A stretch of DNA of 64,000 nt from the human T2T-CHM13v2.0 reference genome, Homo sapiens, in the NCBI RefSeq assembly GCF_009914755.1, contig NC_060928.1; one strand, given 5' to 3'. This document shows positions 5,920-57,577 of the stretch, piece after piece. The first letter of the stretch is position 1. Every line of letters starts with the position of its first letter. The notes below the pieces were generated by a model. That model did not search any database, was not told where the DNA came from, and was given only the letters and a program-made list of their open reading frames with translations. Position numbers and translations under genes: made by a program.

Positions 5920-6456
5920 TGTGATGGTTAATATTGTCAACTAGATGGGATTAAAGGATGCAAAGTATTGTTCCTGGGTGTGTCTGTGAGAGTGTTTCCA
6001 AAGGAGACTAACATTTGAGTCAGTGGACTGGTAGAGGAAGACCCACCCTGAAGCAACTTATCTAATCAGCTGACAGCACGGCTAGGATAAAAGCAGGCAG
6101 AGGAACGTGGAAGGACTAGACTGGCTGAGTTCTCCAGCCTTCATCTTTCCCCCATGCCGGATGCTTCCTGCCCTCAAACATCAGATTCCAAGTTCTTCAG
6201 CTTTTGGACTCTTGGGCTTACACCAGTGGTTTGCTAGGGGCTCTCAGACCTTCAGCCACAGATTGAAGGCTGCACTGTTGGCCTCCCTACTTTTGAGGTT
6301 TGAGGACTCAAACAGGCTTCCTTGTCCTCAGCTTGCAGACAGCCTATGTGGGACTTCACCTTGTGATTGTGTGAGTCAATACTCCTTAATAAACTCCCTT
6401 TCATATATACATCTATCTTATTAGTCCTGTCCCTCTAGAGAACTCTGGCTAATACA
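5920..6456 (+). mobile_element. MLT2A2-like (HERV-L) solo LTR
   Basis: tgtgatggttaatatt...gtccctctagagaactctggctaataca; TG...CA termini; ~537 bp. Confidence 0.9.
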
Positions 6457-8224
6457 GTATCAAAAGAAACAAAACAGATTAACAATTACATTTCTTTCCT
6501 GGTGATTCTAATTCTAGATGGCCTTATTTCTGCAGTAAATTGCAACCTCAAAATATTGCATTATTATCCAATAATTGCCATGTTTGTGCATTACTATAAT
6601 TTATATAATACTCATTTTATCTTCTGGATTCAAAATGTAACTACTCAATTTCCGTCTTTCACTTTAAATTATGTTAGTTGTTTTATCTACGTCCCCAAAC
6701 ATCTTGTTTCTGACCAAAAATACCATAATATCTATAGTATCTATGTCATTAAATCATCAAGGATACAACTAAACAATTGAATTCATGTTTTTTTCTTCTG
6801 CATAAAATCAAGTATAACATCTAGATAATTTATTTTTCTAATGCAAGTATTCTGTGGCATGAGGAAATAGCCTTAATGTGTACATGGCTCCATAATTACA
6901 CAGTACATAGTAGTATTATAATAGTATTTACTAGTATTTTACAGGTATTCGACTTCATGTTTATTGCCTCTGTTTAGCACTCAATGGTAGCACTGAATAT
7001 ACTACCTCTTCTCTGAAATTTCAAAATATGTTTGATGCAGATTCTGTAAACATTTTTTGTGCAATATGTAGTTAAAACAGCAACAGAAAGCCTCAGTTGC
7101 AGCACCCACACGTTCTATATTGAAACACATACTGAAGATTTTAAGAATTCTGAAGCAATACTACCACTTTTCAAAAATGCCTGTGAGTCATCCCTGGAAG
7201 GCTTTCCCTTTCTTTTCCTAAAACTGTAATAAAATGCTAGTGAACTGACTTAAATGATGATCTGTATCCGTTATAATAATAATAATAAAAAAAACACTTT
7301 CAGAAATAAATTGAATGATATTTTGACCTGCCACACTAATGGAGAAAAGCATATGCCTTCTTTATCATACATCTTCCTTGAAGTATATCTTAAGGTCTCT
7401 TTGTCACTGGCATCAACAGCTGAAACATTAAGCTCTCTTGGCTCCTTTAGTAGGAAGATCCAGTTTGACCTAAGTCATTGAAGGTAAAAAGCGCATATGA
7501 TTTAGGGGCTCTAATGCAATAGTTAATAGCTCTGCTAGAGTAGCACATTTTATGTCCCCAGTCGATGCTTCCTGTTTCATTTACTTTAATTATCCAACAT
7601 TTTAGATACAATTCTTTTCATCCAACTTCCCTGTTTTCTTAGAGTTAATTGCTGCTCATAATCGTAGTACTGGATCATTGAGGAAGAAGAAAGTAACTAT
7701 TCTTTGAAGTCATGTATTCTTCCTGCTGATAGCAGAATTATTCCCTAAAGGATATTTCTAGCACTTTGTCCATTTCAGTTACAATTGTCTTCAGAGACAT
7801 GATTTCTATCACTTTCCCTGAAACATCACTTGACACATTATTCATTTAATGGGTTTTATGATTTTTTCCTTTTATACAAAAAACATACATTCCATTTTCT
7901 TAATTTCGTCTCACTTTTACTAGATATGAAACATAATGGCTTAAGTAATTTCTCTTCAATTTCTAACAACTACATTCTCTATGTAAGGTAGTGACATAAA
8001 ATGATCATAGTGTAATTTTTATCTATATCACATAATATTAAATTGGTTTTTCACCTATTTTATTATGAAAATTGATCTATATCTTAAGATATTTACCTTT
8101 CAAAAGCACCAAATAGTTGATTAATCACTGAGAGAAAAATAAGCAAAATATTTTATTGGATAATCACAGTCTTCTAAAATTTTATTTTTAAAAGTTAGTC
8201 ATACATTCACTTGGTGTAAAATAG

Positions 8225-8474
8225 AGAAGGTATCAGAAGTTATATAATCAAAATAAAATCCTCTCCTACACTTTGCTCCAAAAGAACTCATTACCCCAAC
8301 CAATTTCTCCATCAGTCTTTCAAAGATATTTTCTTACCTATTATCTATGCAAGCAAAACAAACACATGTATAAATATAATACATTACTATACACAAAAGA
8401 AATAATGAAACAAAAATGGTAGCACAAGATAAAAATTATTTTGCAACTTATGACACTTAATATATCATATTGGT
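8225..8474 (+). repeat. Source copy of a ~250-bp local duplication (second copy 10428-10671), within a probable old L1M relic
   Basis: By-eye alignment ~90% identical, with one 5-bp indel. Confidence 0.9.
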
Positions 8475-9796: not shown

Positions 9797-10770
9797 TTCT
9801 TTTTAAAAAGTTTAATTGTATGTATTTAAGATGTACAACATGATATACATCGAGATAATAAAATGGTTACTGCAGTCAAGCAAATTAACATATTCCTCCT
9901 CTCACATAGTTAACCCCTTTTTATGTGGCCAGGGCACCTATAATCTACTCTTTAAGCATTAAACATCCCAAGTACAATACCGTATGTATTATTAACTATA
10001 GTCCTCATTTTGTACATTAGATCTCTGTACTTGTTCACCCTACATATCTGGTACTTTGTGTCCTTTGACCTACATCTCCCATTTTTTTCCCTATGCACTC
10101 CTATTCCTGATTACCACTGCTTTATTCTCCATCTCTGTGTATTCAACTTTTTTTTAAGATTCTACATGTGAGATCATGCAGTAGTTTTCTTTCTGTGTGT
10201 GTCTTAATTCGCTTAGCATATTCATCCATATTCATCCATATTGCGGCAAATTGCTCCTACACTGTAGGTGGGAATGGAGATTAGTGCAGCCATTGTGGAA
10301 AACATTATGGTAGTTCCTAAAGAAATTACAGATAGAATTACCATATGACTCGGCAGCCCCTTTTCTGGCTATATACCCAGAGGAAATAAAATCACTACCT
10401 TGTAAAAGTATTTGTATTCCCATGTTCAGAAGGTACCAGAAGTTATATAATCAAAATAAAAGTCTCTCCCACACTTTGTCCCCAAGATCTCATTACTCCA
10501 ACCAATATCTCCATCAGTTTTTTAAAGATATTTTCTTACCTATTATGTATGCAAGCAAAACAAACACATGTATAAATATAATAAATTACTATACAAAAAA
10601 GAAATAATGAAACAAATAGCACAAGACAAAAATTATTTTGCAACTTACTACACCTAATATATCGTATTGGTGTATGTCAAATATACATCATTTCTTTATC
10701 CATTTGTTCACAACACATTATATATACATATAGAATGGAATGGTATTAATCCCTTAAAAAGAATTTTAAA
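9797..10770 (-). mobile_element. L1MA-type 3' end, fragmented and partly inverted
   Basis: Antisense L1MA 3' UTR 9797-~10250; sense fragment ~10252-10428 (ORF track MGIQILLQGSDFISSGY on minus); short L1 fragments 10670-10770. Confidence 0.75.
10428..10671 (+). repeat. Second copy of the 8225-8474 segment, embedded between L1 fragments
   Basis: Shares e.g. 'atgcaagcaaaacaaacacatgtataaatataata' exactly with the 8.3-kb copy. Confidence 0.9.
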
Positions 10771-11804: not shown

Positions 11805-12014
11805 TTTCACATGCATCTGTGTGAAGAGACCACCAAACAGGCTTTGTGTGAGCAATAAAGCTTTTTAATCACCTGGGTGCAGGCGAGCTGAGTCCAAAAA
11901 GAGAGTCAGTGAAGGGAGATAGGGGTGGGGCCATTTTATAGGATTTAGGGGGGTAGTGGAAAATTACAGTCAAAGGTGTGTTCTCTTATGGGCAGGGGCG
12001 GGGGTCACAAGGTG
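11805..12014 (-). mobile_element. Partial 3' LTR7 (upstream half of U3 missing)
   Basis: Aligns with 14485-14696 and joins pol sequence directly at ~12014/12015. Confidence 0.9.
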
Positions 12015-14484: not shown

Positions 14485-14895
14485 TTTCATGCGCGTCCGT
14501 GTGAAGAGACCACCAAACAGGCTTCGTGTGAGCAATAAAGCTTTTTAATCAACTGGGTGCAGGCAGGCTGAGTCTGAAAAGAGAGTCAGTGAAGGGAGAT
14601 AGGGGTGGGGCTGCTTTATAGGATTTGGGTGGGTAGTGGAAAATTACAGTCAAAGGGGGTTGTTCTCTTACGGGCAGTGGCAGGGTTCACAAGGTGCTCA
14701 GTGGGGCAGCTTCTGAGCCAGGAGAAGGAATTTCACAAGGTTAATCACTCAGTTTAGGTGGGGCAGGAACAAATCACAATGGTGGAATGTTATCTGTTAA
14801 AGCAGGAAACGGCCATTTTCACTTCGTTTGTGATTCCTCACTTGCTTCAGGCCATCTGGATGTATACGGGCTGGCTTGGGTTCAGAGGCCTGACA
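14485..14895 (-). mobile_element. 5' LTR of HERV-H (LTR7B-like)
   Basis: Minus strand TGTCAGGCCTCTGAACCCAAGCC...TATAAA...ATTAAAAAGCTTTATTGCTCACAC...CATGAAA. Confidence 0.92.
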
Positions 14896-15124
14896 GGAAT
14901 CTACCTATTTACAGTTTTCTAGCCTTCAGCTAAGGAAAGTCCCAAGTTAACTGTTACATGGTTCAGTCATCTAGCAAGATATTGAGGAAAAGTGAAAAGT
15001 CAATATAAAGAACAAAGTAAATACAGAAAAATGGAGTAGTTTTGCTATGCCTATTAATATATTATACATATAATATGTAACATGTATTATATACATAAAA
15101 TATACTTTTTATTTACTACATATC

Positions 15125-15691
15125 ACATAGATAATTGGTTCTGTTTCTCTGAAAAGATTCTTTTGAGAGAAAATAAGAGAGAGAGGGAACAAGAGAGAGA
15201 GAAACAAACAAATTTATGTATATGTATATCCTACTGGTTCTGTTTCTCTGGAGAGAATAGATATATATTCTCTAGAGAGAGAGAGAGAGAAGGATTTATG
15301 ATGGGAATTGGCTTACATTATTATGAAGGCCGAGAAGTCCCACAATCTGCCATCTATTTACAAGCTAGAGAACCAGAAAAGCCATGGCTTAAAACAGTCT
15401 GAGTCCAACAAGTCTGAAAGCCGAAGAAACAGGAGCACTGATGTCAAAGGACAGGAAAAGATAAATGTTCCTGCTCTAGCCCAATCTTCCTTTTTATTCT
15501 TTTTTGTTCTATTCAGGCCCTGGATGGATTGGATGAGGCCCACCCATGTTGGTGAGGGCAACTCTTTACTCAGATTCAAATGCTAATCTTTTCCAGAAAC
15601 GCCCTCACAGACACACCCAGAAATAATATTTTACCAGCTCTCTAGGCATCCCTCAGCCCAGTCAAGTTGACACATAAAATTAATCATGACA
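15125..15691 (-). mobile_element. MLT2C/MLT2D-type LTR with rearranged microsatellite-bearing end
   Basis: 'cacagacacacccagaaataat...cagtcaagttgacacataaaattaatcatgaca'; (GA)n tract. Confidence 0.8.
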
Positions 15692-16108
15692 GATCATGTG
15701 TATCAATAAGGAGGTGACTCTGGAATTCTCTGCCTCAAGTTTCGTGTTAGTGAGGTTCTGAATGCTCAATGACATGCTGACTACACAGAGTAGAGAAGAT
15801 TTCTTGGAGCAGCTAATTCAGCTGAATATTTGATCAAAGGTGATCACCTATGAAGAAAATAATTATGCTTTTTATTAAGTTGTGCTTTAAATTCTCTAAA
15901 TTTGCCATTTTCTCTAATAATTAGCTCAAGTATTGTCCTGTCTCAAGAAACTTAAAAAAATAAAACAGGCAATTTTTGTTTACTGAAAGAGAACTGTGGA
16001 AACAAAGACTTTTCATTAAAAATCAATTTCTTAGGAAAATTATTATGTGACAGTACTCATTGCATAACATAATGGTGAGGAATAGATTGAAATACTAGAG
16101 AAACAAAC

Positions 16109-16471
16109 TCACGCGCGTCCATGTGAAGAGACCACCAAACAGGTTTTGTGTGAGCAGCAAGGCTGTTTATTTCACCTGGGTGCAGGCGGGCTGAGTCCGA
16201 AAAGAGTCGGCAAAGGGAGATAGAGGTGGGGCCATTTTATAGGATTTGGGTAGGTAGAGGAAAATTACAGCCAAAAGGGATTGTTCTCTGGTGGGCAGGG
16301 ACAGAGGTCACAAGGTGCTCAGTGGGGGAGCTTCAGAGCCAGGAGAAGGAATTTCGCAAGATAATGTCATCAGTTAAGGCAGGAACTGGCCATTTTCACT
16401 TCTTTTGTGATTCTTCACTTGCTTCAGGACATCTGGATGTGTAGTGCAGGCTTGGGCTCAGAGGCCTGACA
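16109..16471 (-). mobile_element. LTR7-family solo LTR (different subtype from the provirus LTR)
   Basis: TGTCAGGCCTCTGAGCCCAAGCCTGCAC start; AATAAA-type poly(A) signal; perfect TSD caaac at 16104-16108 and 16472-16476. Confidence 0.95.
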
Positions 16472-18744
16472 CAAACCTATAATTATATTCATTAATCTTA
16501 TTTTCAACATTTGAAAATGAATCGTGAAAAATTTTATTAAGTGTCAAAACTTTATAAATGCTTTATATATCTAAAGATTATTTAAATTTTAGACCAATGT
16601 AACCATTTTTCCTCCTTTACAAAATTTCTAATACTTTATACGTTTCCATTCTTCTTTGGTGGCATGGAGAAAATAATTCCCATTGAAGAACAGAGATTGG
16701 TCTGTATAATTATTATTTGACACCATGTATATTTACCAGGTGCTTTCTGCATTTACAGCATTGAGGTCCCAAACATACATGGCATGAGAGAAAGACCAGC
16801 ACACAGCCCCTTTCCAAAGAGTTCAAGGAGAATTGACTGCTATTTTTTTCTATAACAAAGTGTCTGGATTATGACTGTTTCAACTTTCGAAGCTTCTGAA
16901 CACAGAACAGTTTAATAAGCTCAGTGATCTCTAAGAAACATTTGCCAGAAAGAAAACCTGCGGATCATGATTTCAAAGTGACTCAAACAGAGCTTTTCGC
17001 TACAAAGTGCCTTTTCAATTAGAATGCTGGAAATCAGACAGTGCAAAGATGTAAGGTAACCAGGGAAGGCAAGTTAGGGCTGCCTATGGCTAGATAGAAC
17101 TATTCCTTTCTCGTTTAGTTCAGCTCCTTGAAGAAACCTGAGGTGCAAGAGCAGCACATACCAATTTCTTGCATTTTCTCCCTTGTTTTGGTCTTGAGTG
17201 CCTTTATATGGTGTCTTATTCCTTCAAGTCTATTGTGAAGCTTCTATTAGTTTTTAAAAGCTTTTGTTTCCAAGAAGTAGGTTGCTACCTCTCCCACAAC
17301 AAGAAAATAAAATTACTAAGTACTACAACCTTGGGCCTGTTTCTAATCATTGGGAGATAAAATGAGGGGATCATTTGACAGTCACTGTACGCTGGAAACA
17401 TCAACTAATGACCTTTATTACTAATGACCTGGGCCCTCAGGCAATGAACCTAGACAACACTGATTAAGAGAGAAGCCTGCTGGTTTTTACAGCCATATAA
17501 AATTGAAGGAATCTTTGTGTTTAATAGAGAAGGAGTAGGACAGAGAAAGAAACGTAAAAATGAATGAGCTATAAAAAAAAAGACTTTTTTTCTTCCATTG
17601 TGCTGCATATTAGAGAACTAGTTAATAAATAGTAAGGCTCAGAAATACTTTTGAATTAATGTGTGGGACTGAGTCTTTGGAATAGATGAGTCTTTAAAAA
17701 ATAACAATTATCCGCTGAATCCTGCAATCCTGTACACTTTGTCTACATGTCCCTAGAAAATGTGTCATGTCTAAACACAGCTATATCAAGCACCACAGAC
17801 TTAGCAGAGTCTTCACAACTTCCCACCTGACTTCTGTAGTGAGTTTATCCATTAATATAATAAGAGTCCTCAGGGGTCTCTTCTGTTAAGTGCTCTTTCC
17901 GTTCTCCTGAAGTGGCACCAGGGGACTGCTCCACTGCTCCTCTTGGCAGGGTGTTTTTACACAGGAACCACCCACTACTTAAAACACTTCATTGAGATTC
18001 CTGTCCAAACTTTATTTAACCGTTGTTAGTCCATTTGTCCATGTCCTAGGGGTGTAATTAATGTAGCTGCTTCATATCCCCTCTTCATTTTAAAAGGACG
18101 TTAATACTTAAATCCACACTGGTCTCAAATATTTCAACCATTATGTTCACACATAGTGATTATTTCTGTAGTTGCATTAGAAAATTATCTTATAAAAATG
18201 ATTTGAAGAAGAAATATTGTGAAAAACCATAGAAGCAGATTAAATAAAATTAAAATCACACACAAGCCCAACACCCCATAGATGTCATCAGTTTTACCAG
18301 TTGGTTATATTTTCGAAGAACCTATCTTTCTTAAAAAAGTGAGTTTACACAATGTATAGAATTCTTATATTCCTCTTTTTATTGAACAGTGTATTGAGAA
18401 AATTTTCCTATGATGTTGGGAATGTAACTTTATTGGCAGTCCATGCTGAACATGTGGAATGTGCTACTCCAACAGATATTCCAGAGGAAAATAATCAGAT
18501 CAAACAATATGTTATTTCAAAGCCAATCAGCACATAATTCATAGCTGTTAAATTCAGCTTCTTGGTTAATATATGAACTGGTTGTGAGAATTGACAAATT
18601 GTTTCTAAGCTCCCGAATAATATTACTAATTTAACTAGCTTATGACTTATTAAAATGCTTTCCCTAAGAAGAATAAGATACAACATTAGATCATTGTTAG
18701 AGGAAAAAACGATTAACTGTATTTTAATGGATCCAGTGTATTAA

Positions 18745-21703: not shown

Positions 21704-23375
21704 GCTTTGGTTTAATATTAATGGAGCATTATATGAAGAATACAATTCAGAACATGACACAGGCTAATTCTCAGCTGAAATAAAGCCTTTTAGAAAGCTA
21801 ACATTTTTAAAAGCAGAGAAAGTGTAGTAGATTCAAAATCGTGCACTTCAATTTACACAAAATATTCACAGTGTATTATGTCACAGGTGAAGAGAATAGT
21901 GATACTAGATACTTAGATTGGACCAGATCTATAATCTCCAATGGTCAGTTAGAATTTTAACATAAAATACTTAAATTATCCACAGCAGATCACTGAGAAA
22001 AGTATGTATGGTCAGCTTGTGCTCTAAATTTACCATTTCAAAACCTTCATTAACTATAAACATATGAAAAAGTCAACATCCTCAGCATTAAAAAGGTCAA
22101 ATTCACATTATTAATCTATACTTCATTTATACACTGGTTTATTTTCTCACCAAATAGATTTTCTTCCTTTTTAATTATCTATTTTTGTCAAATATGCCAC
22201 TATAAACCAGAGACTCAAGCCAAAAATATAGTCATTCTAGGGTTTGACTTCTTTAGCCACTACTCTAGGCATTGGAATCAAGGACCTGTTGGTTAAGTCT
22301 CCTTACTACACTGTGAATCCACTGCTATCCCGTCACTATTTCAGATTCCTTTTAAATGTGGCTTGCCTCTGCTTCTGAAATAGTCTCCAAATTTGTCTCC
22401 CTGCTTTTGTGCTTCCCTCACATCTTTCCTCCACAGTTCATGTCAGTGTGATATTCCTAAGATTGAGTTCACGCTTATCAACCCACCACCCCTAAAACCA
22501 TCTATAGTTTCTCAATACCTTTTGACTAAAGTTCCAGTTTTTCAAAATGACATACAGAGTCCTGAGGAATGACACAGGGACCTTCAGAATTCTCTGCCTT
22601 CAGTCATATTTCTCCTAACATAGCCCACCCTGTGCCGTTCTTTTTCAAACTGCTTAGATGTCTTGTGTTTGTGAAGTTCCCTCATGCCAATCAACATCCG
22701 ACCTGGTTATGCCACGTCACCGTGTCTTTTCTATTTCTGGTTGCTCTCCCTAGAAGAGCTTCACTGCTCTGACCAGGAAAAGGATATTTGGCCATCTTTC
22801 AACAAGACATCCTAACCCCTCCCCATCCAAACAGAAATGAGCACTTCTAGACTTCAGCCATTGTCAACTTTCTACATATTTTCATAATCTATAATACTTT
22901 TATACACATATTTATGTGTTCTTATTCTAAAGTAGGTCATAAATACCTAAAATAAATTTGTTTTTGCATCCTGAACACCTAGAAAGAATGCCATAAATGT
23001 TCATTTATGGATTTATTTTGAAATAATAAATATATATTATGATATAAACTATTCAGTTTATATAGCTTCATTTATTGTACATTTGATTTTTATTTGAACA
23101 AAAAATCATAAGGTCATGATAATATACAAAAATGTAGAAATACAAATGTTTGACATATTATCCATTGTGAATTTTTCTTGAATATTCTCCCCTTTACTTT
23201 GCTTTATTCCCCATTTCGAGAAGTTAGACTTTTTCTTACTCAATACAGTATCTCATGGGAGTGATGGAAAAGGTAGAAAAGAGACTTGTTCTGCCTGTTG
23301 CCTTCCAAGAGCCTAGTTCCCTTAGTAAATGAAAAAATATTATGTATACAATAAGTATTTAAGAGGGGTACACTA

Positions 23376-23704
<329 letters not shown>

Positions 23705-24802: not shown

Positions 24803-26109
24803 AGAGTAAGCCAAATTTTCTATGTTCTCATTCTGTGAAGCCAAAATCACAAATCCATATTAGAACCAAAGCACATTAGGATAGAAAAGACTTATGCCTA
24901 CAGCCAAGGAAGATGTTAATATAAAAACTGATTATTTCTTAACTATTTCAAATCTAGACATTGTTATTAATGAAATGTCCTGGTAAGATACAAGTTATCT
25001 TAAAAGTGACCTGTGCACTTTGTGTAATATTTAAAGGTATCTGTGGGGATTTTTGGAAGTTCCATATCACTTTGGAAAAATCTTCAACTAGATTATTCAT
25101 GCCATGAGCTAGACAACCCTCCCTGGGGGATGTTTCCACTCTGTGTAGTTGGGAGTCTGAGTAATGTTCTCTTGAAGATTGTCTTATACCATGAGGTGAG
25201 GTACTGCATTTGGTACCAGCTGCAATCTCCACATGGTTTTCTGCTTTCGTTTCAGAAAAACACATTGAAATAGACACATCTGAACATGATAAATGTAGGG
25301 ATCACTGTTGCAGAGTCCTGTGCACTGTAGGAAAGGATGCAGACAGTCAGTCAGATGGAGAGTTTAAAAGGGCATCCTGGCTGCCTAAGCAATCTGAAAA
25401 CCATCAAAAGTGATAAATCTAGTGATATTCTTAGGTCATGTTCCAACTTCACAGTTTGAATATAACCAAAGTTCAATTTGTGATCCAATTTCTCTCCTAC
25501 ACACTATCAAAGTATGCTTTCCTTTTTGACAATATCACTTTTTGTTAACTGGGGTTCCACTCATCCACTTATACAAAACATTGAACTCCACTAGTTCTTT
25601 TATTAGTCATTGTCCATAATGAAACTGTGTTTATGTTGTATCTAAATGTCCAATAGTATCTTATTATGATTCTGTCTGATACTTATCATTTAAATGTGTG
25701 CATGCCCCCGCCATTCATGTATATTAACAATGCCTGCCCTAGACTATATCCACCAAATGTCCCAACTAAATTGATGAAATGTGACAAAAATGAAAAATAA
25801 GTTTTGCTTTGTGTCATTAATACCTATTGATAGATATCCTAAAAATTTAATTTATTGACACTTTTCATATTTTGTAAGAACCTACTCTCTCCTGGGCACT
25901 GTATTTGGCATTGGAAATACATCTTACTGACATACTGAAAAGCCCTAAATGGAAAAATGCCCACTAATGACTCAGAATGAGAACATTCATAGTGGCGATG
26001 ATGACAGCCACCTGAATTAAATGACAGAAAGTTAGGGATGTCTGATTCACCTCTCTTCACACACACATTGAAACACAACACAAAAGAAAAGGCGATATGG
26101 AAAAATTTC

Positions 26110-26368
26110 CAAGTTTATTTTAGAAAATTTGAAAAACACCAAGGTGAAAAAGAGACAAAAGCTATTAATATTTTGACCCACAGTTCTCAAGACTTTGTTA
26201 TTTTACTTGTTTCAGTGTTCACAATTTTTAAAAGGAAGAAGGAATGGGTAGTGCTAATTTTGAATCAGAAATTACCTATTTCTGAATAAACTGAAACACT
26301 TTATAGATCCTATGTTTCCAGGATAATAAATGGTAAGTTACAATGGCCAGATTGCATTGCTGCTATGC
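26110..26368 (+). repeat. Left arm of 259-bp inverted repeat
   Basis: Reverse complement of 26773-27031 at 256/259 positions, no indels (checked block by block). Confidence 0.98.
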
Positions 26369-26772
26369 ACTGGAAGTTAAAACTGTTTTATTTTAAGTCT
26401 GGCAAATACCAATAAAACGTTCACTAACCGAAGTTCTGATGAAGCCCTGGGGCGAGATAGCAGGTGCACACAAAGAAAAACCATGATATGTTTCTCTTCA
26501 CTCACCAGTACTGTACTCACTCACCCCAAGTCTCTAACAAATTCAGACATTTTTGTGGACAGAAGGAAATAAGCCACTCCCTTATAATACTGAACCTGGT
26601 TTATAAAGCATTCAAGGCTGTTTTAAGCTTTCTCACTATCTCTTATCTCTCTTTATACAATAATTCTTTCCCACATCAATTTTTAGAGATGTGTTGCATT
26701 TCACAGAGGAAAAAAGAAGTGCATTAGAGCTTTATGTCTGGCCATAGCTGTAAGGGACTGAACCTTGCCAAG

Positions 26773-27031
26773 GCATAGGAGCAATGCAATCTGGCCATTG
26801 TAACTTACCATTTATTATCCTGGAAACATAGGATCTATAAAGTGTTTCAGTTTATTCAGAAATAGGTAATTTCTGATTCAAAATTAGCACTACCCATTCC
26901 TTCTTCCTTTTAAAAATTGTGAACACTGAAACAAGTAAAATAACAAAGTCTTGAGAACTGTAGGTCAAAATATTAATAGCTTTTGTCTCTTTTTCACCTT
27001 GGTGTTTTTCAAATTTTCTAAAGTAAACTTG
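26773..27031 (-). repeat. Right arm of 259-bp inverted repeat
   Basis: Partner of 26110-26368; paired coordinates sum to 53141 throughout. Confidence 0.98.
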
Positions 27032-28043
27032 CATTATCCTTGCAATCTTGAAAAACTAAATGCTCTCCAAAATGATGCTGAGAACCAGTTTAAACTAGGT
27101 CAGTCTTATGTTTTTAACAGATACCAGGACAGCTGGGATCTTGCTCTATTGGATTTGATTCAAAGATGATGTAGAATTTTGTGCTCTACACAAGAACTGC
27201 CATATGAGTCAACAGAGTTTGTGACCTTGCTCAGACTTTAACTAAATAGGCTGGTATACCAAGCCCTTGAAATTATCTGCCTTGGAGGAAACACAGTGAA
27301 GTGAAATTAAACCAAAAAATTTACCAGAGCACAAAAAACTTCTTCTAGTACCCAGAACAATCAACAATAAAATATGTTTTGGTGATGATATCATGGACAT
27401 GCTATGACAGGTTTAATTTCAAGTTTTAAGGCAAGGTTTATGCAAAATAGAAAAAATAAATTCAGGTATTCAGGTAGCTCGGTGCAAGGGTTAAATGGAT
27501 TTATGTTTAAGTCTTATAAGCAGTAATCACACAGAAAAAAATAATGACAAGGATGACAGTATTAATAAGTGGGAAAACTAATACAAATGGTTAGATGATC
27601 AGTAAGAAAATGACTCTATTTTATTTAAAGTTCAAAATAGCCCCAGAATATTGGTTTTGGTAATATAAATTGTCTAAGGGTGTTATCTTTCCTACTTCTT
27701 TCTCATTAATTGACTTAGCATGGTAGTTTACATGTAATTGGCAAGGTACCCTGCCAGGTTATCACCTGTCTCAGATGCACCCTTTTCCTTCATGCCTTTC
27801 ACTATGAATCTGGAGGTACTCAATTCTCAAAAATTAAAAACCAGCCCATATTCTATAAGTGTAGTGTCATACAGAAAAAGAAAAAAAAAAGATGGGTCTA
27901 TAAATGAATTGCATTCATTTTTCTGGAACAATAACCACCAAAAAAAAAAAAAACCCAACATAGCAAAATACTATATTAATTTACTTCAGGACCAAATGAA
28001 CAAAATCACTGGACTTTGTAAAACCCTATTGTTTCGCAAGACT

Positions 28044-28062
28044 TACTGACACCTGGTGGCTA
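28044..28062 (-). promoter_or_regulatory. Candidate CTCF core motif
   Basis: Minus strand TAGCCACCAGGTGTCAGTA, close to the CTCF consensus (CCACCAGG.GGC.G). Motif match only. Confidence 0.5.
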
Positions 28063-28609
28063 AATCTCAACAGACTTTGCAATAAACAGAGAAGAGCTCT
28101 TTTTGCCAGGCAACATATAGGATTTGCAACACACTTGACATTGAGGGAACACTAAACACATAGCTCTAGTCTAAGCAGAGTAAGAAAATCTATGTCAAAG
28201 CAGAACTCTGCAATTTATTCTTGTTCAATGGCACTCATGAGTATTCATTTTCAAGTTTTCAGGTGTGAAAACTTGAAATTGAATTGTCAATAACTCAATT
28301 CATCTGCTCCAAGTTACCATGTGGAGAACATCTGAGAGGTTGGGGGCTGAAAGAAAATCACCAAGAGGTCTTTTACTTATCTTGAATAGATTTTGGTCCT
28401 TCTTCCTTTACATACAAATGAACTAGTAAAAATACCTGTATTTCTTTTTAAACCTCAGCATTATGTGATAGATGTTCATTTTATGGTCTAGTTATTTTTT
28501 TTCTCCAGATAAAAAACAACATAAAAATTATATAAATTCACAGCTCAGAGAAACTGTATACATTGAATTAGTGGTAACTTCATGCCTTCCCATGGTTATA
28601 ATTTTATCC

Positions 28610-39293: not shown

Positions 39294-39464
39294 AAGAATA
39301 AAGCTGACATCTATTCAGAAACAAGTTTATATTTAATTATAAATTTGTATTTCTCTAGAGAAAATACCTAGAAGACGGATTGTTGGGTCATATGGCAAGT
39401 ATATGCTTAATTTTACAAGAAATTGCTAAACGATGTTGCAAAGCAATTGCACCATTTTATGCTC

Positions 39465-39916
39465 CGTATTAGTTAGGGTTCTCTAGAGGGACAGAACAAA
39501 TAGGATAGATGTATATATAATGAGGAGTTTATTAAGGAGTATTGACTCACACGATCACAAGGTGAGGTCCCACACTAGGCCATCTGCAGGCTAAGGAGCA
39601 AGGAAGCCAGTCCAAGTCCTAAAGCTGAAAAACTTTGAGTCCAATGTTCGAAAGCAGGAAGCATCCAGCATGGGAGAAAGATGCAGGCTGGGAGACTAAG
39701 CCAGCCTAGTCTTCTCACGTTCTTCTGCCTGCTTTTATTCTGGCCACACTGGCAGCTGACTAAATTGTGACCACCCAGATTGAGGGTGGGTCTGCCTTTC
39801 CTAGTTCACTGACTCAAATGTTAATCTCCTTTGGCAACACCTTCACAGACACACCCAGGATCAATACTTTGCATCCTTCAATCCAATCAAGTTGACACTC
39901 AATATTAACCATCACA
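39465..39916 (-). mobile_element. MLT2A1-like solo LTR
   Basis: gtattagttagggttctctagaggg...attaaccatcaca, 452 bp; TSD tgctc (39460-39464, 39917-39921). Confidence 0.93.
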
Positions 39917-45608: not shown

Positions 45609-45667
45609 TATCTATATCCTCACTCCCTTAATGTTTGCTTTCTTGTTTCATGGTGTTAAATACCTTC

Positions 45668-46217
45668 TGTATTAGTCAGGGTTCTCTAGAGGAACAAAAC
45701 CAATAGGATAGATGTATATATGAAGGGGAGTTTATTAAAATGTATTGACTCACACGATCACAAGGTGAAGTCTCATAGTAGGCCATCTGCAAGTTGAGAA
45801 GCAAAGAAGCCAGTCTGAGTCTCAAAACCTGAAAAGTAGGGAAGCCAACAGTGCAGCCTTCAGTCTGTGGCTGAAGGCCTAAGAGCCTCTGGCAAATCAC
45901 TGATGTAACTCCAAGAGTCCAAAAGCTGAAGAACCTGCAGTCTGATGTTTGAGGGCAGGAAGCATCCAGCACAGGAGAAATATGAAGGCTGAAAGACTCA
46001 GCCAGGCTCCTCATTCCACTTTCTCCAGCCTACCCTACTTTATTCTAGCCACACTGGCAGCTGATTAGATGGTGCCCACCCTGATTGAGGGTGGGTCCGC
46101 CTCTCTCAGTCTGCTGACTCAAATGCTAATCTCCTTCGGCAACACCCTCACAGATACACCCAGTTACAATACTTTGCATCCTTCAATCTAATCAAATTGA
46201 CAATATTAACCATCACA
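45668..46217 (-). mobile_element. MLT2A2-like solo LTR
   Basis: tgtattagtcagggttctctagagg...attaaccatcaca, 550 bp; TSD ccttc (45663-45667, 46218-46222). Confidence 0.93.
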
Positions 46218-56767: not shown

Positions 56768-57577
56768 TGAGAGGTGAAGCCAGCTGGACTTCCTGGGTTG
56801 AGTGGAGACTTAGAGAACTTTTTGTCTAGCGAGAGGATTGTAAACACACCAATCAGCGCTCTGTGTCTAGCTAAAGGATTATAAATGCACCAATCAGCAC
56901 TCTGTGTCTAGCTAAAGGATTGTAAATGCACCAATCAGCACTCTAAAAATGCACCAATCAGTGCTCTGTGTCTAGCTAAAGGATTGTAAATGCCCCAATC
57001 AGCATTCTGTAAAAACACACCAATCAGCGCTCTGTGTCTAGCTAAAGGATTGTAAACACACCAATCAACACTCTGTAAAATGGACCAATCAGCTGGACAT
57101 GGGCGGGATCAAATAAGAGAATAAAAGCTGGCCACCTGAGCCAGTAGTGGCAACCCACTCAGATCCCCTTCCATGCTGTGGAAGCTTTGTTCTTTCGTTC
57201 TTACCAATAAATCTTGCTGCTGCTCACTCTTTGGGTCCACACTACCTTTATGAGCTGTAATACTCACCATGAGGGTCTGCGGCTTCATTGCTGAAGTCAG
57301 CGAGACCACAAACCCACCGAGAGGAACAAACAACTCCAGACACACCACCTTTAAGAGCTGTAACACTCACTGTGGAGGTCTGCGGCTTCACTCCTGAAGC
57401 CAGCGAGACCATGAACCCACCAGAAGGAAGAAACTCCGGACACATCTGAACATCTGAAGGAACAAACTCCGGACACACAATCTTTAAGAGCTGTAACACT
57501 CACTGTGAGGGTCCGCAGCTTCATTGTTGAGGTCAGCGAGACGAAGAACCCACCAGAAGGAATAAACTCCAGACACA
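56768..57577 (+). mobile_element. LTR12-family (ERV9) solo LTR
   Basis: tgagaggtgaagccagctggacttcctggg start; tandem CCAATCA enhancer repeats; AATAAAA TATA-like box ~57120; U5 tandem repeats ending agacaca. Confidence 0.95.
56840..57095 (+). promoter_or_regulatory. Array of 8 CCAAT boxes (NF-Y type) in LTR12 U3
   Basis: Eight ccaatca occurrences in ~24/41-bp repeat units. Confidence 0.8.

What the first reader, a model, noticed from the sequence alone, without database searches (positions are those of the whole stretch)
26110..27031. Near-perfect 259-bp non-transposon inverted repeat around a 404-bp spacer: candidate invertible DNA segment or long dsRNA hairpin
Seen: arms 26110-26368 and 26773-27031 pair at 256/259 positions with no indels (mismatches 26118/27023, 26179/26962, 26362/26779). 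Identity stops abruptly on the outside and decays on the inside. The arms match no repeat family I recognise and show no TIR/TSD structure, and they are far more alike than the two HERV-H LTRs in this window. Established: close inverted repeats mediate recurrent micro-inversions and arm-to-arm gene conversion, and give ADAR/Dicer substrates if transcribed. Inference: either a very recent template-switch duplication, or an old repeat kept homogeneous by concerted evolution with a spacer that may flip. A transcript from either strand would form a ~250-bp duplex with one G-U pair and one A-C mismatch.
Basis: partly seen in the sequence, partly recalled or inferred. Interest (0 to 1): 0.8.

Follow-up and report, generated by a model that had tools for sequence, protein, structure and literature searches.

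The report
Young local inverted duplication, gene desert
A 259-base stretch of ordinary, non-repetitive human DNA on chromosome 4 was copied once, backwards, 404 bases away from itself; this is a real but ordinary scar of a replication or repair error, and nothing shows that it has a function.

Summary
Arms 26110-26368 and 26773-27031 pair at 256 of 259 positions with no indels, around a 404-bp spacer.

It is not a transposon. The arm matches only these two places in the whole T2T genome. There is no target-site duplication, and the arm has no weak relatives in 262 kb of other human DNA.

Both ends of the homology are sharp. The reported "decay on the inside" is at chance level.

Arm divergence is 1.16% (95% CI 0.24-3.4%), about what a single neutral duplication some 1-30 million years old would show. 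Concerted evolution is not needed to explain it. The arms are not GC-enriched and are roughly 100 times more diverged than classic gene-converting palindromes.

There is no Rfam match and no annotated gene within 100 kb. The locus was not found in the supplementary text held for two inversion studies.

The structure fits a known class: local opposite-strand non-tandem duplication, or 3-2-1-4 template switch. A staggered-break micro-inversion is the main rival.

Which arm came first, the age, and whether the spacer flips all need ape outgroups and pangenome data, which these tools do not hold. Interest is low.

The parts
26110..26368 (+). Left arm of the inverted repeat (259 bp, 30.9% GC, no CpG)
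   Evidence: 256/259 complementary to the right arm, no indels; this arm and the right arm are the only two places in the whole assembly that match at E<=0.001.
26369..26772 (.). Unique 404-bp spacer (38.4% GC, 3 CpG). Its two halves share no internal inverted homology.
   Evidence: composition; local alignment of the two halves is at chance level, with 60 of 300 shuffles scoring as high; 2 chance-level hits against 262 kb of other human DNA.
26773..27031 (-). Right arm, the reverse complement of the left arm. It differs at 27023, 26962 and 26779.
   Evidence: 99% identity, minus strand, E 1.7e-125.

Best explanation
This is a single-locus, evolutionarily young, selectively neutral local inverted duplication.

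A 259-bp stretch of unique, AT-rich intergenic DNA was copied once onto the opposite strand and inserted 404 bp from its source. The likely cause is a replication or repair error. In the four-point template-switch model this is the 3-2-1-4 pattern. In long-read surveys it is called 'non-tandem duplication, opposite strand'.

Since then the two copies have picked up 3 substitutions. On this reading the spacer is simply the ancestral DNA between the source and the insertion site.

The element has no demonstrated function. Its only likely activity is passive. It is a potential hairpin or fold-back substrate when long single-stranded DNA is exposed. It is also a short, sub-optimal substrate for recombination between the arms.

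Shown: the structure, its uniqueness in the genome, sharp boundaries, the absence of transposon hallmarks, and the level of divergence.

Inferred: the mechanism, which arm is the source, the age, and neutrality.
For: Structure and uniqueness:
- 256/259 identity, no indels, sharp boundaries on both sides.
- Only the two arms match in the 3.1-Gb assembly. The 2.4-kb neighbourhood matches only itself and the arms, even at E<=10.
- The arm, spacer and flanks give 17 chance-level hits (best E 0.004; arm best 0.066) against 262 kb of other human DNA. A known interspersed repeat from the window gives 65 hits.
- No flush TSD. Flank similarity is at chance level (P 0.078 and 0.27).

Age:
- Divergence is 3/259 = 1.16%, Poisson 95% CI 0.24-3.4%. 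That gives 5.8-11.6 My (outer limits 1.2-34 My) at 1e-9 to 0.5e-9 substitutions per site per year (the rates are recalled, not from a call). A plain neutral history is therefore enough.

Fit to a known class:
- In one human genome, 21 of 166 supported local rearrangements were non-tandem opposite-strand duplications, and 6 more had a deletion as well (PMC5829575 Table 2, passages read).
- 2 of the 3 mismatches lie within 8 nt of an arm end (P = 0.013, post hoc). This fits the reported error-prone synthesis next to the junctions of replicative rearrangements (PMC6902434, passages).

No sign of function:
- 0 Rfam matches at E<=1 in 25000-28200. The hub annotation lists no gene within 100 kb.
- In a published scan, 88% of long, highly paired predicted dsRNAs in the human genome are intergenic and mostly unedited (PMC11838218, section 10 read).
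Against: - No outgroup or population data could be consulted. The ancestral single-copy state, the source arm and the ancestral orientation of the spacer are all untested.
- Both junctions have at most 1 nt of microhomology. In one human join-point series, only 19 of 159 junctions had <=1 bp of match. The junctions therefore look more like end-joining than classic microhomology-primed switching.
- At 259 bp, the copied tract is much longer than the tens of bases typical of the short-range template switches modelled.
- The clustering of mismatches at the arm ends would also be expected if gene conversion homogenises the interior of the arms.
- Absence of transcription is inferred from annotation only.
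Confidence: 0.55

Rival explanations
1. By-product of a staggered-break micro-inversion. The ancestral order was flank-B-C-flank. One break was staggered by 259 nt across B and the other was flush. After fill-in, the B-C piece was rejoined inverted, giving flank-B-C'-B'-flank. The arms are then the filled-in overhang, and the spacer is inverted relative to the ancestor. This origin is also neutral.
For: - The predicted product is exactly an inverted duplication of non-repetitive DNA flanking one segment, with sharp ends and end-joining-like junctions. At most 1 nt of microhomology is seen here.
- In Drosophila, 17 of 29 fixed inversions carry such duplications. Twelve of these have a duplication from only one breakpoint. 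The median size is 321 bp, range 46 bp to about 1.9 kb (PMC1885836, abstract and passages read). An arm of 259 bp falls inside that range.
Against: - The model was established for large Drosophila inversions, not for a 663-bp human segment.
- The human long-read survey lists 21 plain opposite-strand non-tandem duplications. It names no recurring 'inversion with flanking inverted duplication' class and gives only a single unique delINVdup case.
- Unwinding 259 nt for a staggered break is a difficulty the authors themselves acknowledge.
Confidence: 0.2
2. An older inverted repeat whose arms are kept alike by arm-to-arm gene conversion, with a spacer that can flip by recombination between the arms.
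For: - The arms meet published criteria for recombinogenic long inverted repeats: stem >30 bp, identity >85%, spacer <2 kb (quoted in PMC4319165, passages).
- 2 of 3 mismatches sit within 8 nt of the arm ends, while the 243-bp interior has one (P = 0.013, post hoc). Conversion would leave this pattern because it needs flanking homology.
- Inversions mediated by inverted repeats recur in humans and apes (PMC6748972, passages).
Against: - Arm divergence of 1.16% is about that expected without any conversion. From recall, it is roughly 100-fold above the arm divergence of Y-chromosome palindromes.
- The arms are GC-poorer than the spacer and the window (30.9 vs 38.4 and 35.8%). This is the opposite of what long-term GC-biased conversion predicts.
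- There is no eroded homology beyond either arm end that would mark an older, larger repeat.
- Validated human NAHR inversions used inverted repeats of 654 bp to 24.2 kb, so 259 bp is below that range.
- No entry beginning 100465-100467 appears in the supplementary text held for the T2T inversion paper or the 65-genome paper. This is weak evidence, because those methods may miss a 404-bp flip and stored files can be truncated.
Confidence: 0.12
3. A transcribed hairpin-RNA locus. A transcript through the 922 bp folds into a ~259-bp duplex that feeds ADAR, Dicer or dsRNA sensors.
For: Either strand would fold into a near-perfect 259-bp stem: RNA MFE -518 kcal/mol, z -37. Template switching is a published route to new hairpins.
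Against: - No annotated gene within 100 kb (hub annotation).
- No Rfam match at E<=1.
- No CpG island: 0 CpG in the arms and 3 in the spacer.
- Long, highly paired dsRNA-forming repeats are mostly intergenic (88%) and unedited (74%). The authors read this as intolerance of such repeats in transcribed loci.
- No expression data could be consulted.
Confidence: 0.03
4. A non-autonomous DNA transposon or foldback element with 259-bp terminal inverted repeats.
For: The overall layout is long terminal inverted repeats around a short core, 922 bp in total.
Against: - Only this locus matches in the whole genome.
- No TSD of 2-11 bp.
- No weak relatives in 262 kb, whereas a real interspersed repeat gave 65 hits.
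- Ancient human DNA transposons would not retain 98.8% identical terminal repeats (established knowledge).
- No Dfam library was available, so a very old, degenerate repeat underlying part of the sequence cannot be excluded. That would not explain the 99% arm identity.
Confidence: 0.03
5. An assembly artefact in T2T-CHM13.
For: None found.
Against: - Fold-back or chimeric read artefacts give perfect palindromes with no spacer. Here there are 3 arm differences and a 404-bp unique spacer.
- The surrounding 2.4 kb is single-copy sequence.
Confidence: 0.02

Closest known systems
Localized 'non-tandem duplication (opposite strand)' in human long-read surveys (Frith & Khan 2018, PMC5829575)
   Same: A few hundred bases of local sequence are present a second time, nearby and in reverse orientation, with no transposon involved. 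The class is frequent: 21 of 166 supported local rearrangements in one genome.
   Different: Those cases were polarised with chimpanzee and gorilla as the ancestral state and were polymorphic. Here the ancestral state is unknown, and 1.16% arm divergence suggests a much older, probably fixed, event.
Short-range template-switch mutations, four-point model, pattern 3-2-1-4 (Loytynoja & Goldman; Walker et al. 2021, PMC7954356)
   Same: The reverse-complement copy of nearby sequence creates a single new inverted repeat with a loop.
   Different: The modelled events lie within tens to hundreds of nucleotides and are usually short. Here the copied tract is 259 bp, and the junctions show at most 1 nt of microhomology.
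Inversion-associated inverted duplications from staggered breaks (Ranz et al. 2007, PMC1885836)
   Same: Inverted duplicates of non-repetitive DNA flank one segment. The size range is 46 bp to 1.9 kb with a median of 321 bp, and often only one breakpoint is duplicated.
   Different: The model describes large Drosophila inversions. Here the flanked segment is only 404 bp, and whether it is inverted relative to the ancestor is unknown.
Recombinogenic long inverted repeats (Wang & Leung criteria) and genome-wide repeat-pair maps (Fernandez-Luna et al. 2024, PMC11794170)
   Same: It meets the stem >30 bp, identity >85%, spacer <2 kb criteria. It also meets the >=200 bp, >=80% identity threshold of the T2T-CHM13 map, which reports 627,791 inverted pairs.
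   Different: About 73% of mapped inverted pairs overlap SINEs, and the median identity is 84%. This pair is non-repetitive and 98.8% identical. I did not find it in the 2 supplementary files held, which are not the full pair lists.
Large sex-chromosome palindromes under arm-to-arm gene conversion
   Same: Two inverted arms around a unique spacer.
   Different: From recall, those arms are kilobases to megabases long and >99.9% identical. Here the arms are 259 bp, 98.84% identical and not GC-enriched.

Membership tests
Long inverted repeat (LIR, Wang & Leung criteria as quoted in PMC4319165) | Stem >30 bp, stem identity >85%, internal spacer <2 kb | tested here: met
   259 bp, 98.84% and 404 bp. 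Criteria read.
Local non-tandem opposite-strand duplication / 3-2-1-4 template switch | Two copies of otherwise unique local sequence in opposite orientation, with discrete ends | tested here: met
Local non-tandem opposite-strand duplication / 3-2-1-4 template switch | The ancestral state has one copy, and the spacer is co-linear with the ancestor | not testable with these tools
   No primate outgroup or pangenome sequence is held. Skew-based polarity was uninformative.
Local non-tandem opposite-strand duplication / 3-2-1-4 template switch | Microhomology at the switch points (typical, not obligatory) | tested here: not met
   At most 1 nt at either junction, whichever arm is taken as the copy.
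Staggered-break inversion with inverted duplication | Inverted duplicates of non-repetitive sequence at the ends of a segment, tens of bp to ~2 kb in size | tested here: met
   259-bp unique arms. Published range 46 bp to 1.9 kb.
Staggered-break inversion with inverted duplication | The flanked segment is inverted relative to the ancestral arrangement | not testable with these tools
   No outgroup is available.
DNA transposon / MITE / foldback element | Multiple copies in the genome | tested here: not met
   2 of 2 genome matches are the two arms themselves. The 2.4-kb query finds only itself. No weak relatives in 262 kb, against 65 hits for a control repeat.
DNA transposon / MITE / foldback element | Target-site duplication flanking the terminal inverted repeats | tested here: not met
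   No flush direct repeat of 2-11 bp. The longest shared word in the 20-bp flanks of the whole unit is 3 nt.
Palindrome under concerted evolution | Arm identity far above the neutral expectation for its age; arms more alike within than between species | not testable with these tools
   The age is unknown without outgroups. The observed 1.16% is compatible with no conversion at all.
Palindrome under concerted evolution | GC enrichment of the arms from biased gene conversion (expected, not obligatory) | tested here: not met
   Arms 30.9% GC, spacer 38.4%, window 35.8%.
NAHR-mediated polymorphic inversion | Both orientations of the spacer observed among haplotypes | not testable with these tools
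   Only one haplotype is held. No entry starting 100465-100467 in the supplementary text held for PMC10150506 or PMC12350169. The 612-candidate catalogue of PMC13629690 could not be consulted (main text only).
NAHR-mediated polymorphic inversion | Flanking inverted repeats in the size range of validated cases | tested here: not met
   259 bp, against 654 bp to 24.2 kb in the 24 validated NAHR inversions.
Known structured RNA family | Match to an Rfam covariance model | tested here: not met
   0 matches at E<=1 in 25000-28200, both strands.

The most novel reading that the evidence does not exclude
This would be an autosomal mini-palindrome that is older than it looks. Arm-to-arm gene conversion keeps the interior of the 259-bp arms identical and leaves mismatches only at the arm edges. 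Its 404-bp spacer toggles recurrently in human and ape lineages. If so, it would be an IR-mediated invertible segment with arms well below the 654-bp minimum of validated human NAHR inversions. It would also be a tractable locus for measuring the lower size limit of recombination between inverted repeats.
Probability: 0.1. Interest if true: 0.5.

Novelty: new member of a known kind. Interest (0 to 1): 0.15.

Why it matters
It matters little as it stands. It is one more example of a common class of local rearrangement, it lies in a gene desert, and nothing indicates function.

It has modest value as a clean test case. Both arms are unique, transposon-free sequence, the ends are sharp, and three arm-specific variants are available as markers.

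With ape T2T assemblies and pangenome haplotypes it could show three things:
- whether such inverted duplications arise by copy-insertion or by staggered-break inversion;
- whether 259-bp arms 404 bp apart undergo gene conversion or flip the spacer;
- whether substitutions cluster at the junctions, as error-prone repair synthesis predicts.

Tried and rejected
- **Eroded homology beyond the arms.** Gapped local alignment of the spacer halves and of the 300-bp outer flanks was at chance level. The 'inner decay' is rejected.
- **TSD and flank repeats.** Nothing flush. The CCTTGC 6-mer shared by the flanks of the right arm (P 0.078) and the TGGAA shared by the flanks of the left arm (P 0.27) are chance-level.
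- **Polarity from strand composition.** The AT skew of the arms is +/-0.039, against a block standard deviation of 0.157. Uninformative.
- **Tandem repeats and composition around the locus.** Nothing relevant.
- **Rfam.** No match.
- **Base-rate sampling.** One arbitrary 200-kb block of chromosome 1 was fetched. In it, 0 of 20 inverted pairs with spacers <=5 kb reach >=100 bp and >=90% identity. 4 of 265 inverted pairs reach >=95% over >=100 bp, all with spacers of 6.9-68 kb.
- **Catalogue look-ups by T2T coordinate prefix.** No hit in the supplementary text held for PMC11794170 (2 files), PMC10150506 (3 files) or PMC12350169 (2 files searched, 1 unreadable). A search for 'chr4' in the PMC6748972 supplements found nothing; 12 of 18 files were searched. 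These negatives are weak. Files may be truncated or use other coordinate systems, and a 404-bp flip between 259-bp repeats may be below the resolution of those methods.
- **Print search for this locus.** Eight literature searches returned no paper that names it.

Full report
**Observation.**
The repeat finder reports a single long inverted pair in 25000-28200, with arms 26110-26373 and 26768-27031, 98% complementary. Comparing 26110-26368 base by base with the reverse complement of 26773-27031 gives 256 of 259 matches and no indels.

The pair cannot be chance. The BLAST E-value within the window is 2e-130. The 922-nt unit folds far better than any of 20 dinucleotide shuffles, both as RNA (-518 kcal/mol, z -37) and as DNA (-327.5 kcal/mol, z -40). 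Of the 52 repeat pairs that a self-BLAST finds in the window (20 inverted, 32 direct), it is the only one with >=95% identity over >=80 bp. The LTR-like direct pair at 39463-39916 / 45666-46217 is 82-85% identical. I did not verify its family.

**Two details of the reading are wrong.**
First, the identity does not decay on the inside. The next five positions are 3 matches in 5. A gapped local alignment of the two spacer halves scores 19, against a shuffle mean of 17.1 (sd 2.4; 60 of 300 shuffles score as high). The 300-bp outer flanks score below the shuffle mean. Both ends of the homology are therefore abrupt, as a single copying event with two discrete junctions would leave them.

**Not a transposon.**
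- The arm finds exactly two places in the 3.1-Gb assembly at E<=0.001, namely the two arms.
- The surrounding 2.4 kb finds only itself and the arms at E<=10. That tool skips very common words, so I ran a separate check.
- In a sensitive BLAST (word size 7, E<=1), the arm, spacer and both flanks were searched against 262 kb of other human DNA: the rest of the window plus an arbitrary 200-kb block of chromosome 1. They gave 17 chance-level hits in total (best E 0.004; best for the arm 0.066). A known interspersed repeat of the window (23373-23649) gave 65 hits.
- There is no flush target-site duplication of 2-11 bp around either arm or around the whole unit. The longest words shared by the 20-bp flanks are at chance level (6-mer P 0.078, 5-mer P 0.27; 20,000 random placements).
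- No Dfam library was available. An ancient degenerate repeat underlying part of the sequence cannot be excluded, but it would not explain 98.8% arm identity.

**Age, and whether concerted evolution is needed.**
Three differences in 259 bp is 1.16% (Poisson 95% CI 0.24-3.4%). I recall human substitution rates of 0.5e-9 to 1e-9 per site per year; these figures come from no call. At those rates, two copies diverging independently would be 11.6 or 5.8 My old, with outer limits of 1.2-34 My. So the arms are about as different as a single neutral duplication of roughly human-chimpanzee age should be. Nothing requires homogenisation.

Three points speak against a long history of gene conversion:
- The arms are GC-poorer (30.9%) than the spacer (38.4%) and the window (35.8%).
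- No eroded homology extends beyond the arms.
- From recall, the arm divergence is about two orders of magnitude above that of sex-chromosome palindromes.

One observation cuts both ways. Two of the three mismatches lie 8 and 6 nt from an arm end, and the 243-bp interior has one (P = 0.013 by simulation; the test was chosen after seeing the data). This could mean conversion of the interior. It could equally mean error-prone synthesis next to the junctions. [quoted passage not shown] If the two junction-proximal differences arose in the event itself, the interior divergence is 1/243 = 0.41% (CI 0.01-2.3%), and the duplication would be younger.

**How it most likely arose.**
The structure is what long-read surveys call a localized non-tandem duplication on the opposite strand. 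There were 21 such events, and 6 more with a deletion, among 166 supported local rearrangements in one human genome (PMC5829575, Table 2 and passages). In the four-point template-switch model, the patterns 1-4-3-2 and 3-2-1-4 are the majority in great-ape genomes and "generate single inverted repeats" (PMC7954356, passages). On this reading, the 404-bp spacer is simply the ancestral DNA between source and insertion point.

Two points weigh against a classic microhomology-primed switch:
- Both junctions have at most 1 nt of microhomology, whichever arm is taken as the copy. In one human join-point series, only 19 of 159 junctions had <=1 bp of match.
- 259 bp is long for a short-range switch.

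The main rival for the origin is a staggered-break micro-inversion. One break staggered by 259 nt and one flush break, followed by fill-in and inverted rejoining, give flank-B-C'-B'-flank. This predicts exactly the present layout and end-joining-like junctions. In Drosophila, 17 of 29 fixed inversions carry such inverted duplications of non-repetitive DNA. Twelve of these are duplicated at one breakpoint only, with a median size of 321 bp and a range of 46 bp to about 1.9 kb (PMC1885836, abstract and passages).

The two origins differ only in whether the spacer is inverted relative to the ancestor. I could not test that. Strand-composition continuity gave no polarity signal (arm AT skew +/-0.039, against a block sd of 0.157).

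**What it does.**
Nothing indicates a function:
- Rfam gives no match at E<=1 on either strand of 25000-28200.
- The hub annotation lists no gene within 100 kb.
- The arms have no CpG and the spacer has three.
- A genome-wide scan of predicted human dsRNAs found 31,017 that were >96% paired. Only 2,018 were both >300 bp and >96% paired. Of these, 88% were intergenic and 74% unedited, which the authors read as intolerance of such structures in transcribed loci (PMC11838218 preprint, section 10 read). This locus, at 259 bp and 98.8% paired, sits just under their length cut and shares the intergenic location.

As DNA, it meets the published criteria for recombinogenic long inverted repeats (stem >30 bp, identity >85%, spacer <2 kb; quoted in PMC4319165). 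Widely spaced inverted repeats become unstable mainly when long single-stranded DNA is exposed (PMC10164571, abstract only).

Validated human NAHR inversions used inverted repeats of 654 bp to 24.2 kb (PMC6748972, passages). At 259 bp the arms are below that range, so any flipping would be infrequent.

I found no entry at this T2T coordinate in the supplementary text held for the T2T inversion study, the 65-genome study or the repeat-pair map. These are weak negatives, for the reasons given under Tried and rejected. The 612-candidate inversion table of PMC13629690 was not available to me (main text only).

**How unusual it is.**
- The T2T-CHM13 repeat-pair map reports 627,791 intrachromosomal inverted pairs of >=200 bp and >=80% identity. 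Their median identity is 84%, and about 73% overlap SINEs (PMC11794170, sections 6, 7 and 12 read). This pair meets those thresholds but is atypical, being non-repetitive and 98.8% identical.
- In my own small control, an arbitrary 200-kb block of chromosome 1, 0 of 20 inverted pairs with spacers <=5 kb reached >=100 bp and >=90% identity.
- Scaling from the 21 polymorphic cases per genome, I infer that the genome should hold hundreds of fixed inverted duplications of this kind. This is an inference, not a count.

**Verdict.**
The finding is a real, precisely described, single-locus inverted duplication of unique DNA. It is most likely a neutral scar of one replication or repair error in a gene desert, and a new example of a known class. 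The invertible-segment and hairpin-RNA readings remain physically possible but have no support here. Ape outgroups and pangenome haplotypes would settle the origin, the age and any flipping.

Noticed in passing
window 39463-39916, 45666-46217 (direct) and 5920-6457 (inverted to 45667-46217): Three copies of an LTR-like repeat of about 450-550 bp. The direct pair lies about 6 kb apart and is only 82-85% identical. The third copy is 82.6% identical in inverted orientation, 39 kb away. The family was not verified.
   Followed up: no
window 11813-12014, 14487-14758, 16109-16379: A repeated unit of about 200-275 bp occurs three times in direct orientation at 84-90% identity. Two of the copies fall at the starts of the two RefSeq enhancer intervals (14622-15821 and 16080-16661) (hub annotation). 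The enhancers may be built on a locally duplicated or repeat-derived module.
   Followed up: no
window 8225-8474 and 10428-10671: A direct repeat pair, 250 bp, 90% identical, about 2 kb apart.
   Followed up: no
window 56823-57577: Overlapping direct self-matches at 85-94% identity indicate a tandem array.
   Followed up: no
L011:7783-8520 and L012:5383-6120 (chromosome 1 control block): An inverted pair of 738 bp at 98.4% identity, separated by 6.9 kb. It is the closest high-identity inverted pair in the 200-kb control. Whether it is a young LINE pair or another local inverted duplication was not checked.
   Followed up: no
window 26332-26338 (mirror copy in the right arm): The left arm contains GGTAAGT, which I recall as the textbook 5' splice-site consensus. 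In AT-rich DNA with no annotated gene, this is most likely coincidence.
   Followed up: no
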